Positions 34,537 to 41,769 of a stretch of DNA of 64,000 bases are shown one piece after another. The notes beneath the pieces were generated by a model, which was given only the letters and a program-made list of their open reading frames with translations, searched no databases and was not told the DNA's origin. The translations under genes were made by a program, and so were the position numbers. How positions within the stretch are numbered: position 1 is the stretch's first letter; the number at the start of each line of letters is the position of its first letter. Location of the stretch: contig OX638340.1 of NCBI GenBank assembly GCA_951812955.1, positions 3,456,001 to 3,520,000 on the forward strand, given 5' to 3'. The DNA comes from an uncultured Gemmatimonadota bacterium (GTDB lineage Bacteria; JAAXHH01).

Positions 34537-37500
34537 ATGTTTTTCGAGTCCCGACGGACTTTTAGGCGGTTCGGACGCGCCCGCGTCCAGTTGCTCGTTT
34601 CCCTGTCCTTAATCCTTGCCCTATCCTTGCTCGTCACGTGCGCCAGGGACAACCCCACGCAGTCCCGGTCCGCGGTCACGGCCCGGGTCGTGGTCACGCC
34701 CGAGACCACGGACCTGGCATCGGCAGGACAGTCCGTGCTTCTCAGCGCCCAGGCGCTTGACGACGCCGGCCTGGAAGTCTCGGAGACTCCTGTCACCTGG
34801 CGCAGCAGCGACCCGTCCGTTGCAAGTGTGAGCAAGAACGGCGTGGTCATCGCTACCGGCGAAGGCAGCGTGGTCATAACGGCCATGGCCGGCCAGAAGA
34901 CGGGAAGCGCGCGGGTGACGGTGTCGGATCCGGTGAGGCGGGCCCTGGTCGCCCTGTACAGGGCCACGGGCGGCGAGAACTGGAAGAACAGCGCGAACTG
35001 GCTCAGCGATGAACCCGTTCAGAGATGGCATGGGGTGACAACCGCTGCCGCGGGTAGCGCGTCGGGAACGCGTCCGCGCGCCGATGCGGCTGGCGCGGCG
35101 CTGAATCTGCCCGACAACGGCCTGTCTGGTACGATCCCGCCGGAACTGGGCGACCTGGTCCATCTGCGCGAACTGGACCTGTCCAACAACGGGTTGACGG
35201 GATCGATTCCACCGGAACTGGGCAACCTGTTCCGGCTCGAATTGCTGGATCTCTCCGGTAACCGGTTGTCCGGACCTGTCCCTGCGGAACTGGGCAATTT
35301 GTTTGTCCTGAAGTCTCTGCAACTACAGGACAACGCCGGATTATCCGGTCCCCTTCCTGTTTCTTTCTCCGGCCTGACGGGTCTGGAGACCATGGACCTG
35401 TCGGGCACGGGATTGTGCGCGCCGGCGAACGCGGGGCTTCAGAGGTGGCTCGGAGGAGTGACGACAAGACGGGGCGTCGCGAACTGCGGAGCCGTTGCCG
35501 AACAGGACCGGAAGGCGCTGATCGCGCTGTACGAGACCACGGACGGCCCGAACTGGACGAACAAGACGAACTGGCTGAGCGGGGCCGCTCTCGACCGTTG
35601 GTACGGAGTCTCCACCAACGCGGAAGGGCGTGTAACCGCCCTGCGTCTTTCCGGCAACCGGCTGTCCGGACTCATTCCGACGGCGCTGGGCAACCTAGCC
35701 GCGCTGGTTTCCCTGGACCTCGGGAGCAATGAGCTTTCCGGTACCATACCCGGGGTGTTGGGCAACCTGTCCGCGCTGGTTTCTCTGGACCTGTCCGACA
35801 ACCGGCTGTCGGGACCGATCCCGACAGTCCTGCTCACCCTACATAATCTGCAGACGCTGGACCTGTCCGGCAACCTGTTCGATCTTGAGGAGTCCACGGA
35901 CCGCGACGCCCTGGTCGCCCTGTACAACGCCACAGACGGTCCGAACTGGGTGCGAAAAGACAACTGGCTGAGCGACAGGCCGCTGGGCGAATGGTACGGG
36001 GTGACTACAGACTCTACGGGGAGGGTGACGGAACTTAATCTATGGACTCTAGATGAAGATAACAGATCCGCTAGCAATGGGTTGGCAGGTAGTATCCCGC
36101 CAGAGTTGGGCAACCTGACTAAACTGACACAGCTGGATCTTCGTCGCAATAGGTTATCGGGTAGTATACCACCGGAATTGGGCAACCTGACCAAACTGAA
36201 AACTCTGAGCCTTTCCATCAACGAGTTGTCAGGCCGCATCCCACCGGAACTGGGCAACCTGACCAACCTGATCTGGTTGTGGCTCGACCGTAATCAGTTG
36301 TCAGGCCGCATCCCACCCGAACTAGGTAGCCTGATCAAGTTGGATCAACTGTGGTTACAAGGAAATCAGTTGTCAGGCAGTATTCCATCGGAACTGGGCA
36401 ACTTGAGTAGCCTGAGGCAGCTAGCTCTTATGTCCAGCGGTTTGTCGGGCAGTATACCAGCGGAACTGGGCCGCCTGACCAACCTGATCTGGTTGTGGCT
36501 CGAAGATAATCAACTGTCAGGCCGCATCCCTTCAGAGTTGGGCAATCTGACCCGCCTGGAATCCCTGAGTCTTAACGGAAATGAGTTATCGGGCAGTCTC
36601 CCTTCGGAGTTGGGCAACCTGAGCAACCTGAAACGCCTGTATCTTTTTGACAATACCAATCTGTCGGGTCCGCTGCCCGATTCATTCACTCATCTCAATA
36701 TCGCCAGCCTGTTTCTACGTGGCACGGGGTTGTGTGTGCCGACGGACGCCGCGTTCCAGGCGTGGCTGCAGGGAATCAGGAATAAGGATGGTGTGGTGAA
36801 CTGCACGCTCGCGACGGATGATCGCGACGCCCTGGTCGCCCTGTACAACGCCACCGACGGGCCGAACTGGCGGAACGGCAGGAACTGGCTGAGTGACAGG
36901 CCGCTCGAAGAGTGGTACGGGGTCTCCACCAACGCGGAAGGACGCGTGGACAGCCTGAAGCTATTAGGAAATCGGCTATCGGGCAGCATTTCATCGGAAT
37001 TGGGTAACCTGAGCAACCTGCAAGTCCTGGATCTTCAACGCAATACTGGTTTGTCAGGCAGCATCCCGCCGGAGTTGGGCAATCTGACCAACCTGGAAGT
37101 GCTTGAATTTGATAGAGTTCCTTTGTCAGGCAGCATCCCGCCGGAGTTGGGCAAATTGAGGAACCTGCGTTATCTGGGTCTTTCCCGTAACCAGTTGTCA
37201 GGCCAGGTCCCATCAGAGTTGGGAAACCTGACCAATCTGGAAGTTCTGTGGCTTCACTTCAACGCCAATCTGTCCGGTTCTCTGCCCGCGTCACTCACTG
37301 ATCTCGATAAACTCCGAATCGTGAATCTACGAGGAACCGGGTTGTGCGCGCCGACGGACGCTGCGTTCCAGGCATGGCTGCAGGGCATAGGGAGCAAGAG
37401 TGGTGTGGTGAACTGCGACCCGGTGGGCCCTGTCCCGGGGGACGACCGCGCCGTCCTGGTCGCCCTGTACAACGCCACGGACGGGCCGAACTGGCGGAAC

Positions 37501-41769: not shown

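What the first reader, a model, noticed from the sequence alone, without database searches (positions are those of the whole stretch)
34537..41769. Highly repetitive 7.2-kb LRR gene with intragenic near-identical DNA repeats (recombination and copy-number variation potential)
The N-cap coding stretch gacgccctggtcgccctgtacaacgccac(c/g)gacgg(g/a)ccgaactgg recurs about 8 times at roughly 700-900-bp intervals (near 35900, 36820, 37450, 38080, 38840, 39540, 40180 and 41030). The C-cap ending gtggtgaactgc also recurs. Such long direct repeats make the gene prone to module gain or loss by homologous recombination, giving potential surface variation. They are also an assembly hazard, because short-read collapse could misrepresent the true module count.
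Basis: seen in the sequence. Interest (0 to 1): 0.6.

Follow-up and report, generated by a model that had tools for sequence, protein, structure and literature searches.

The report
Ten-module plant-type LRR surface protein
This is one 2,410-residue bacterial surface or secreted protein made of ten plant-receptor-like leucine-rich-repeat domains; its repeated DNA consists of short conserved islands rather than long near-identical copies, so module number has changed over evolutionary time but the gene is neither hypervariable nor an assembly trap.

Summary
ORF 34537-41769(+) is one 2,410-aa gene. The quoted 45-nt motif occurs at all 8 listed sites with 0-6 mismatches. Two more diverged copies lie at 34939 and 35512. 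GTGGTGAACTGC occurs 6 times exactly.

"Long near-identical repeats" does not hold. The longest exact repeat is 78 nt. No self-alignment reaches 90% identity, and alignments of 200 nt or more are 64-82% identical.

The protein has a lipobox-like signal, one Big_2 domain, and ten capped plant-type (PS) LRR modules. Each module has an N-cap, 24-residue repeats and a two-Cys C-cap. One module was modelled (pLDDT 93); its best PDB matches are plant SERK/FLS2 ectodomains.

Module gain and loss is supported on an evolutionary scale:
- Positional orthologs with about 77-80% identical flanks carry 5, 6 and 9 modules, against 10 here.
- A 921-nt one-module indel (M3) has its breakpoints inside the N-cap motif.
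- A 78-nt tract looks like gene conversion.

Rapid population-level variation and an assembly hazard are not supported.

The organism is probably a Gemmatimonadota bacterium. The nearest named relatives are sponge-symbiont MAGs, and this looks like a member of the known class of eukaryotic-like LRR proteins. Tandem capped modules occur in MAGs labelled as at least six major lineages. It is a new member of a known kind, of modest interest.

The parts
34537..41769 (+). Single ORF of 2,410 aa: a multi-module plant-type LRR protein.
   Evidence: Pfam LRR_14, LRR_1, LRR_4, LRR_8 and Big_2; identical protein P0001 in NCBI/ENA on a 3.81-Mb contig
34537..34641 (+). N-terminal signal with a lipobox-like LLVTC motif (Cys35), followed by conserved (G/A)RDNPTQ.
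   Evidence: the Cys and the following motif are conserved in orthologs P0014, P0011, P0121 and P0126, in same-genome paralog P0122, and in four of the five other Big_2-LRR genes of the window (4168-5343 not examined). The lipoprotein status is inferred; Thr at -1 is non-canonical.
34780..34923 (+). Bacterial Ig-like Big_2 domain (the matched part, aa 82-129).
   Evidence: PF02368, E 7.5e-6
34933..35487 (+). Module M1: diverged N-cap, about 4 LRRs and a C-cap.
   Evidence: 81-89% aa identical to module 1 of the orthologs
35506..35898 (+). Module M2: N-cap and 3 LRRs, with no Cys C-cap.
   Evidence: 79-84% aa identical to module 2 of the orthologs
35899..36804 (+). Module M3, the largest module (about 8-9 LRRs). 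The in-frame 921-nt indel unit 35899-36819 spans this module plus the linker to M4. M3 has no counterpart at this position in L080 and L083, and in L082 judging by its N-cap.
   Evidence: The flanking exact 32-nt repeat is 35902-35933 = 36823-36854.
36820..37416 (+). Module M4 (5 LRRs), orthologous to module 3 of P0002 and P0014. This is the module that was modelled.
   Evidence: 77-79% aa; AF2 pLDDT 92.9 and pTM 0.90; best PDB folds are OsSERK2, SERK1, FLS2 and PGIP, TM 0.74-0.83
37444..38064 (+). Module M5.
38083..38820 (+). Module M6.
38839..39522 (+). Module M7.
39538..40158 (+). Module M8. Its first 78 nt (39538-39615) are identical to the start of M9.
40174..41016 (+). Module M9. It holds the youngest internal LRR array: 72-nt units, 6.3 copies, 81% matches, at 40353-40808. 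The 78-nt tract 40174-40251 equals 39538-39615.
41026..41763 (+). Module M10. The protein ends two residues after its C-cap.
41799..43454 (+). Downstream paralog of 551 aa, 30 nt after the stop: a lipobox-like signal, Big_2 domains and one capped LRR module. It is conserved next to the giant gene in the orthologous loci.

Best explanation
The gene encodes a 2,410-aa exported protein, probably lipid-anchored, of a Gemmatimonadota bacterium. It consists of a lipobox-like signal, one Big_2 Ig-like domain, and ten tandem LRR domains that are each capped on both sides. Each domain has a helical N-cap (DRDALVALYNATDGPNW..NWLSD.P..EWYGV), 3-9 plant-specific-class 24-residue repeats (LxxLxLxxNxLSGxIPxxLGNLxx), and a two-cysteine C-cap (GTGLCxP...FQxWL.GI..K.GVVNC).

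The one module that was modelled (M4) folds like a small plant receptor ectodomain of the SERK/BAK1 type. The other modules align to it with the caps and scaffold conserved, so the same fold is inferred for them.

Purifying selection on the protein keeps these alike after old module duplications. The concave-face positions differ freely between modules, so each module probably binds a different partner.

Inferred function: a multivalent binding protein of the 'eukaryotic-like protein' type known from sponge symbionts, acting at the cell surface or after release.

The array evolves by occasional unequal recombination and gene conversion within the short N-cap identity islands. This has produced different module numbers (5-10) among orthologs over species-level divergence. 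It does not act as a fast switch.

Shown here: the anatomy, the fold of one module, the identity levels, the module-number differences between orthologs, the one-module indel with junctions in the N-cap, and the conversion tract. Inferred: lipid anchoring, surface location, host binding, and the sponge association of this particular genome.
For: Anatomy and repeat structure.

PS-LRR consensus: 38 canonical units have near-invariant scaffold positions (L1, L4, L6, N9, L11, S12, G13, I15, P16, L19, G20, L22). Concave positions 2, 3, 5, 7 and 8 are hypervariable, at 2.9-3.5 bits. This matches the PS-class definition quoted in PMC2946307.

Fold: AF2 model of M4 with pLDDT 92.9. The top 50 Foldseek PDB matches are all plant proteins, mostly LRR receptor ectodomains plus PGIP. 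Most of the 60 phmmer PDB matches listed, including all the strongest, are plant LRR receptors such as FLS2, GSO1 and PEPR1.

Export: the hydrophobic leader and Cys are conserved in orthologs and paralogs. Two Cys are invariant in every C-cap.

Repeats are diverged.

Shared ancestry or conversion: codon identity at identical residues is 62% against 38% expected. A run of 26 identical codons has P of about 1e-9.

Orthologs and synteny. Module counts are 10, 9, 6 and 5. Indel junction. Ortholog L082 has recent 90-93% identical duplications of 473-713 nt.

Taxon: LptD homologs at 71-80% identity are named Gemmatimonadetes.

Ecology: the related MAG series APA_bin and SB06xx come from the sponges Aplysina aerophoba and Ircinia ramosa. 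LRR-type eukaryotic-like proteins are enriched, and laterally transferred, in sponge symbionts.
Against: No expression, localisation or binding data exist. The lipobox has Thr at -1, which is non-canonical. The source of the window itself is unknown, and its genome was not in the indexed collections, so sponge association is inferred from relatives only. The direction of the M3 event, insertion here or deletion in the others, cannot be polarised. Between orthologs, concave positions are not more variable than convex variable positions (23-40% vs 30-46%). There is therefore no signal of diversifying selection on the binding face. A close relative with a 90-95% identical backbone (L139) has a different gene at this position. 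Whole-gene turnover may thus matter more than module turnover.
Confidence: 0.72

Rival explanations
1. Contingency locus. The intragenic repeats drive frequent RecA-mediated module gain and loss within populations, giving ongoing surface variation.
For: The direct repeats are real and in-frame. About 20 repeat pairs have 25 nt or more of exact identity, up to 78 nt. A one-module indel with junctions in the repeat and a conversion tract show the mechanism can operate. Ortholog L082 has 90-93% identical duplicated blocks. Neighbouring genes of this family also amplify domains: L139 has four near-identical Big_2 repeats.
Against: No self-alignment reaches 90% identity and modules are 64-82% identical; from general knowledge, divergence at this level strongly suppresses homologous recombination. 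All ten modules are distinct and old. Ortholog P0014 is identical in two samples. No near-identical length variants were found in the protein database or in the metagenome scan. The documented differences are between genomes only about 77-80% identical in the flanks.
Confidence: 0.12
2. Assembly artefact. The module count or order is wrong because repeats were collapsed or mis-joined.
For: The gene is repetitive. The sequencing technology of the source assembly is unknown.
Against: The frame is uninterrupted for 7.2 kb. Every module has its own sequence, and the longest exact repeat is 78 nt. The identical protein lies on a 3.81-Mb contig. Independent assemblies of orthologs are colinear with the window. 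All three match at the 5' end through the M3 N-cap. L080 and L083 also match across M4. L083 matches over 39155-41762 at the 3' end.
Confidence: 0.04
3. Constraint only. The DNA repeats are merely a by-product of protein-level conservation plus codon bias, and recombination between them plays no role.
For: The conserved DNA islands coincide exactly with invariant protein motifs in the caps and the SGSIPxxLGNL scaffold. Most pairs are only 61-78% identical at the DNA level.
Against: Synonymous codon identity is well above the codon-usage expectation, 62% against 38%. The 78-nt identical tract includes the otherwise variable residues MNNT. The ortholog junction has a chimeric pattern. Module counts differ among orthologs.
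Confidence: 0.09

Closest known systems
Eukaryotic-like LRR proteins (ELPs/ELRs) of sponge symbionts
   Same: It has the LRR Pfam domains used to define the class (PF00560, PF12799, PF13855). It sits among other ELP-type genes in the window (Calx-beta, CARDB, collagen-like, Ig-like). Relatives occur in sponge-derived MAGs labelled as several unrelated lineages, which fits the reported enrichment and lateral transfer.
   Different: The literature read here treats these proteins as domain counts. None of the passages read describes the specific architecture of a lipobox-like signal, a Big_2 domain and 5-10 individually capped plant-type LRR domains, or its module turnover (a few keyword searches and targeted passages only). 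Sponge origin of this genome is not shown.
Plant LRR receptor ectodomains (SERK/BAK1, FLS2, PGIP; the PS-LRR class)
   Same: It has the same 24-residue consensus LxxLxLxxNxL(s/t)GxIPxxLGxLxx. The same fold is predicted for the modelled module (TM up to 0.83 to SERK ectodomains, 25-38% identity). Like them, it has an N-terminal helical cap and a Cys-containing C-cap.
   Different: There is no transmembrane helix or kinase domain. Ten ectodomain-like units lie in one polypeptide. The N-cap lacks the LRRNT_2 cysteine pair and scores below Pfam's threshold (13.9 bits against 20.7). The C-cap (C-x22-C) matches no Pfam family. The host is a bacterium, and the protein has a lipobox-like signal.
Xanthomonas plant-like LRR type III effectors (XopAE, XopAC, XopL)
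   Same: These are the best NCBIfam matches. They are bacterial proteins with plant-type LRRs.
   Different: All scores are below the curated cut-offs (459 against 600, 370 against 450, 219 against 500), and the matches arise from the repeats only. Here an N-terminal Sec/lipoprotein-type signal is present, not T3SS effector architecture. There is no Fic or E3 domain.
Repeat-array surface proteins that vary by intragenic recombination (for example Alp/Rib-family or other tandem-repeat adhesins)
   Same: It has in-frame tandem modules in an exported protein, and module number differs among relatives.
   Different: From general knowledge, not tested here, those arrays have near-identical repeats and vary within populations. 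Here the modules are 64-82% identical, and no within-species variation is shown.

Membership tests
Plant-specific (PS) LRR class | Repeat consensus LxxLxLxxNxL(t/s)GxIPxxLGxLxx with length 23-25 residues (PMC2946307) | tested here: met
   38 canonical 24-residue units have L1, L4, L6, N9, L11, S12, G13, I15, P16, L19, G20 and L22 at 89-100%. The consensus is shown and the definition is quoted.
Plant-specific (PS) LRR class | Fold like the solved plant LRR ectodomains | tested here: met
   The AF2 model has pLDDT 92.9. Top Foldseek hits are OsSERK2, SERK1, FLS2, MIK2 and PGIP, with E 5e-13 to 3e-10 and TM 0.72-0.83.
Plant LRR receptor kinases / receptor-like proteins | LRRNT_2 N-cap with a conserved Cys pair | tested here: not met
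   PF08263 scores E 0.069 and 13.9 bits, below the 20.7 cut-off. There is no Cys in any N-cap.
Plant LRR receptor kinases / receptor-like proteins | A single ectodomain followed by a transmembrane helix, with or without a kinase | tested here: not met
   There are ten capped LRR domains. The protein ends right after the last C-cap, and no kinase domain is found by Pfam.
Sponge-symbiont eukaryotic-like LRR proteins | Presence of the LRR Pfam domains PF00560, PF12799 and PF13855 | tested here: met
   the class definition is given in PMC11706023
Sponge-symbiont eukaryotic-like LRR proteins | Encoded by a sponge-associated symbiont | tested here: inconclusive
   The source of the window is unknown. 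Gemmatimonadetes MAGs with related LRR proteins in the genome scan (APA_bin_41, SB0664_bin_10, SB0661_bin_33) belong to series derived from the sponges A. aerophoba and I. ramosa.
Xanthomonas XopAE / XopAC / XopL effectors (NCBIfam) | Score at or above the curated cut-off | tested here: not met
   459.1 against 600, 369.9 against 450 and 219.2 against 500
Class 1 internalins | Score at or above the curated NCBIfam cut-off | tested here: not met
   NF033188 scores 114 bits against a cut-off of 1050. The repeats are 24-residue PS type.
Bacterial lipoproteins | A lipobox [LVI][ASTVI][GAS]C at the end of a signal peptide | tested here: inconclusive
   The motif is LLVT-C with Thr at -1. The Cys and the downstream G(R/K)D(N/S)PT are conserved in orthologs and paralogs, and two paralogs have Ser at -1 (LTSC, LVSC). 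No dedicated predictor was available.
Contingency / copy-number-variable repeat loci | Long, near-identical tandem repeats (about 95% or more) | tested here: not met
   No self-HSP reaches 90% identity, and the longest exact repeat is 78 nt.
Contingency / copy-number-variable repeat loci | Length polymorphism within a species or population | not testable with these tools
   No conspecific sequences of this gene were retrievable. The only within-species datum is ortholog P0014, identical in two samples.

The most novel reading that the evidence does not exclude
The tandem, individually capped SERK-like LRR modules may form a combinatorial host-recognition repertoire. In this reading, modules are exchanged by N-cap-mediated recombination within and between the many paralogs of a genome, and by lateral transfer among unrelated sponge symbionts. 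This would be a bacterial, cassette-shuffled counterpart of eukaryotic LRR receptor diversification, tuning which host or phage proteins each symbiont binds.
Probability: 0.15. Interest if true: 0.6.

Novelty: new member of a known kind. Interest (0 to 1): 0.3.

Why it matters
LRR-type eukaryotic-like proteins are repeatedly reported as enriched in sponge symbionts, but in the papers read here mostly as Pfam counts. This locus gives a concrete anatomy for one of them. It has a lipobox-like signal, an Ig-like domain and ten separately capped plant-receptor-like domains.

It also gives a documented evolutionary mechanism: module indels and gene conversion at the conserved N-cap. That turns the question of what these proteins bind into a testable one, since single modules of about 200 aa with confident predicted folds could be expressed and used as baits.

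For genome annotators the lesson is practical. Such genes look alarmingly repetitive to the eye, but their DNA identity is too low for collapse or for fast recombination.

Tried and rejected
- Exact-protein look-ups for the window's own LRR protein, LptD and two small neighbours found nothing. The source record and conspecific alleles could therefore not be retrieved.
- The metagenome-contig scan with the conserved N-terminal 460 aa gave no relative above 55% identity in its best-matching segment; the strongest match, which covers nearly the whole query, is 47%. It provided no population test.
- A second protein search with the N-terminal part returned mostly short proteins. Its closest hits, P0121 and P0126, lie on 3-5x long-read contigs with frameshifts or contig ends, so they cannot be used for module counts.
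- Promoter and terminator scans around the gene were at background level. No tRNAs were found in the window.
- A test for faster change of concave-face residues between orthologs was negative.
- NCBIfam names (XopAE, XopAC, XopL, internalins, LIC_11051) were rejected because all scores are below the cut-offs.
- Ungapped flank identities around the 78-nt tract were out of register because of indels and were not used.
- The idea that M3 is a recent duplicate of another module was rejected. Its best internal match is only 62-67% aa identical.
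Full report
**Observation**

The interval 34537-41769(+) is one open reading frame of 2,410 codons. It occurs with 6 mismatches at 38089 and 41032, so all eight listed positions are real. Two more diverged copies, with 9 mismatches each, lie at 34939 and 35512. An HMM built from the caps finds ten N-caps and nine C-caps in the protein. GTGGTGAACTGC occurs six times exactly, against none expected. Start-to-start spacing of the eight listed copies is 624-921 nt.

**How repetitive is it really**

- The longest exact direct repeat is 78 nt (39538-39615 = 40174-40251). 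The next longest are 47, 39 and 33 nt. Sixty-three pairs reach 20 nt and about twenty reach 25 nt.
- A self-blastn gives no alignment at 90% identity or more. Alignments of 200 nt or more are 63.5-81.8% identical, with a median of 68.7%.
- N-cap coding segments of 46 codons are 61-88% identical between modules.
- The repeats are therefore short conserved islands inside diverged modules, not long near-identical copies.

**Anatomy**

The protein starts with a hydrophobic leader ending in LLVTC, followed by (A/G)RDNPTQ. This Cys-containing motif is conserved in the orthologs. It is also conserved in four of the five other Big_2-LRR genes of the window whose N-termini were examined ([LI][TSV][TS]CGKDSPT or similar). 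That suggests lipoprotein processing, although Thr at -1 is not canonical.

One Big_2 domain follows, and then ten modules. Each module has three parts:
- an N-cap, DRDALVALYNATDGPNWxxxxNWLSDxPxxEWYGVxTxxxGRV;
- three to nine 24-residue repeats;
- a C-cap, GTGLCxPxDxxFQxWLxGIxxKxGVVNC, with two invariant cysteines. Module 2 lacks this C-cap.

Across 38 canonical repeats the scaffold positions are 89-100% conserved (L1, L4, L6, N9, L11, S12, G13, I15, P16, L19, G20, L22). The concave-face positions 2, 3, 5, 7 and 8 carry 9-16 different residues each. This is the plant-specific (PS) LRR consensus as defined in PMC2946307.

An AlphaFold2 model of module 4 is confident, with pLDDT 92.9 and pTM 0.90. 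Its best matches among solved structures are plant ectodomains: OsSERK2, SERK1, FLS2, MIK2 and PGIP, with E down to 5e-13 and TM 0.72-0.83. Sequence search of the PDB agrees.

The caps are not the plant ones. LRRNT_2 scores below threshold and the N-cap has no cysteines. The C-cap matches no Pfam family. NCBIfam hits to Xanthomonas XopAE, XopAC and XopL and to internalins are all below their cut-offs.

**Why the DNA repeats exist**

The conserved DNA islands coincide with the invariant protein motifs in the caps and the SGSIPxxLGNL scaffold. Codon identity at identical residues is 62%, against 38% expected from the gene's codon usage. Shared ancestry or conversion therefore contributes beyond protein constraint.

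The 78-nt tract shared by modules 8 and 9 covers 26 identical codons, including the otherwise variable residues MNNT. Its probability under codon usage is about 1e-9. This indicates a gene-conversion or partial-duplication event. Module 9 also contains the youngest internal LRR array: 72-nt units, 6.3 copies, 81% matches.

**Relatives and module turnover**

The identical protein is in NCBI/ENA on a 3.81-Mb contig, and the next best whole-length hits are about 46% identical. Three proteins share the Big_2, M1 and M2 head at 79-89% aa identity: P0014, P0002 and P0011. P0014 and P0002 also share the gene neighbourhood with the window. That neighbourhood includes the downstream Big_2-LRR gene and, for P0014, remnants of the hybrid kinase as well. 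P0011's locus shares only the gene's 5' part and a few rearranged flank fragments. Colinear DNA is about 77-80% identical.

These positional orthologs have 5, 9 and 6 N-capped modules, against 10 in the window. Their C-terminal ends also differ. P0011 ends in a CARDB domain and P0014 in an unassigned 393-aa domain, while the window protein ends at a C-cap.

Relative to L080 and L083, and judging by the N-cap also L082, the window has one extra in-frame module of 921 nt (35899-36819). The orthologs' sequence compares with the window as follows:

| Segment | Identity to the M2-end/M3 junction | Identity to the M3-end/M4 junction |
|---|---|---|
| Upstream of the N-cap | 76-84% | 38-53% |
| Shared 53-nt 5' part of the N-cap | 81-89% | 80-90% |
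| Downstream of the N-cap | 58-60% | 71-82% |

The event cannot be polarised as insertion or deletion.

Ortholog L082 carries 90-93% identical intragenic blocks of 473-713 nt, which are more recent duplications.

Conversely, the 1,732-aa ortholog was recovered identically from two samples. No near-identical length variants of the window gene were found.

**Context**

- The window holds six Big_2 plus PS-LRR genes: 4168-5343, 6894-11750, 11907-13514, 34537-41769, 41799-43454 and 52382-54145(-). Together they contain 17 N-caps.
- There are two paralogous GAF-PAS-kinase-receiver-DNA-binding proteins next to LRR cassettes.
- Also present are Calx-beta, CARDB/metalloprotease and collagen-like proteins, plus LptD and an Omp85-family protein.
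- LptD homologs at 71-80% identity are named Gemmatimonadetes.
- A close relative (L139, backbone 90-95% nt identity) lacks window segments 6249-14698 and 26441-30457. It also has a different Big_2 gene downstream of the kinase ortholog. The island therefore also changes by whole-gene turnover.
- Tandem runs of 4-10 N-capped modules occur in loci from MAGs labelled Acidimicrobiales, Dehalococcoidia, Caldilineaceae, Pseudomonadota, Bacteroidales, Cyclobacteriaceae, Saprospiraceae and Gemmatimonadetes.
- The MAG series APA_bin and SB06xx among the hits come from the sponges Aplysina aerophoba and Ircinia ramosa.
- LRR-type eukaryotic-like proteins are a recognised, laterally transferred, sponge-enriched class.

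**Verdict**

Recombination at the N-cap has changed module number in this gene's history. However, the repeats are too short and too diverged to make the gene a fast-varying locus or a serious assembly hazard.

The gene is best described as a new, well-resolved member of the known class of bacterial eukaryotic-like (plant-type) LRR proteins. It probably acts as a multivalent exported binding protein of a Gemmatimonadota symbiont. Function, localisation and host association remain inferred.

Noticed in passing
window 4168-5343, 6894-11750, 11907-13514, 41799-43454, 52382-54145(-): Five further Big_2 plus plant-type LRR genes. For the four whose N-termini were examined (4168-5343 was not), each has the same lipobox-like N-terminus (..C-G-K-D-S-PT / ..C-G-G in 52382-54145) followed by a proline-rich linker. 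The window is a paralog-rich island, with 17 N-cap hits in all.
   Followed up: partly
window 14414-16807 and 30764-33259: Two paralogous single-polypeptide GAF-PAS-HisKA-HATPase-receiver-Trans_reg_C proteins, each adjacent to an LRR cassette. In relatives, copies are broken: the ortholog of 14414-16807 in L139 carries a deletion of about 930 nt, and the ortholog of 30764-33259 in L080 is reduced to fragments. A regulatory link to the LRR genes is possible but untested.
   Followed up: partly
window 6249-14698 and 26441-30457, compared with L139: A close relative (ERZ24894576 ctg49580l, backbone 90-95% nt identity) lacks these two segments, an LRR cassette and a 1,153-aa Calx-beta protein. Downstream of the kinase ortholog it carries a different 861-aa gene in place of the 2,410-aa LRR gene. 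This indicates strain-level gene-content flux.
   Followed up: partly
L139 1-1277 (- strand): The N-terminal part of an 861-aa lipoprotein-like gene has four nearly identical Big_2 repeats of about 85 aa. This is a recent tandem domain amplification, unlike the diverged modules of the window gene.
   Followed up: no
L082 2520-5679: The ortholog P0011 contains intragenic direct repeats of 473-713 nt at 90-93% identity, including two modules with identical N-caps. These are recent module duplications.
   Followed up: partly
window 23067-24599 and 25418-26452: Two collagen triple-helix repeat proteins. The second is fused to a trypsin-like peptidase domain. The repeat part (about 23366-25405) is not conserved in the close relative.
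   Followed up: no
window 46815-52364 (-): A 1,849-aa protein with about eight CARDB domains, Big_2/Big_9 domains and a reprolysin/M66-like metalloprotease motif, carrying the same lipobox-like leader.
   Followed up: no
window 54001-56000: G+C drops to 0.474 against about 0.56-0.62 elsewhere. The region encodes an OmpA-like beta-barrel protein (55025-55600, -) and an unassigned 235-aa ORF (54272-54979, -).
   Followed up: no
P0014 residues 1340-1732 (L080 about 8880-10060): The positional ortholog ends in a 393-aa C-terminal domain with no Pfam match. The window protein lacks this domain, and another ortholog (P0011) ends in CARDB instead.
   Followed up: partly
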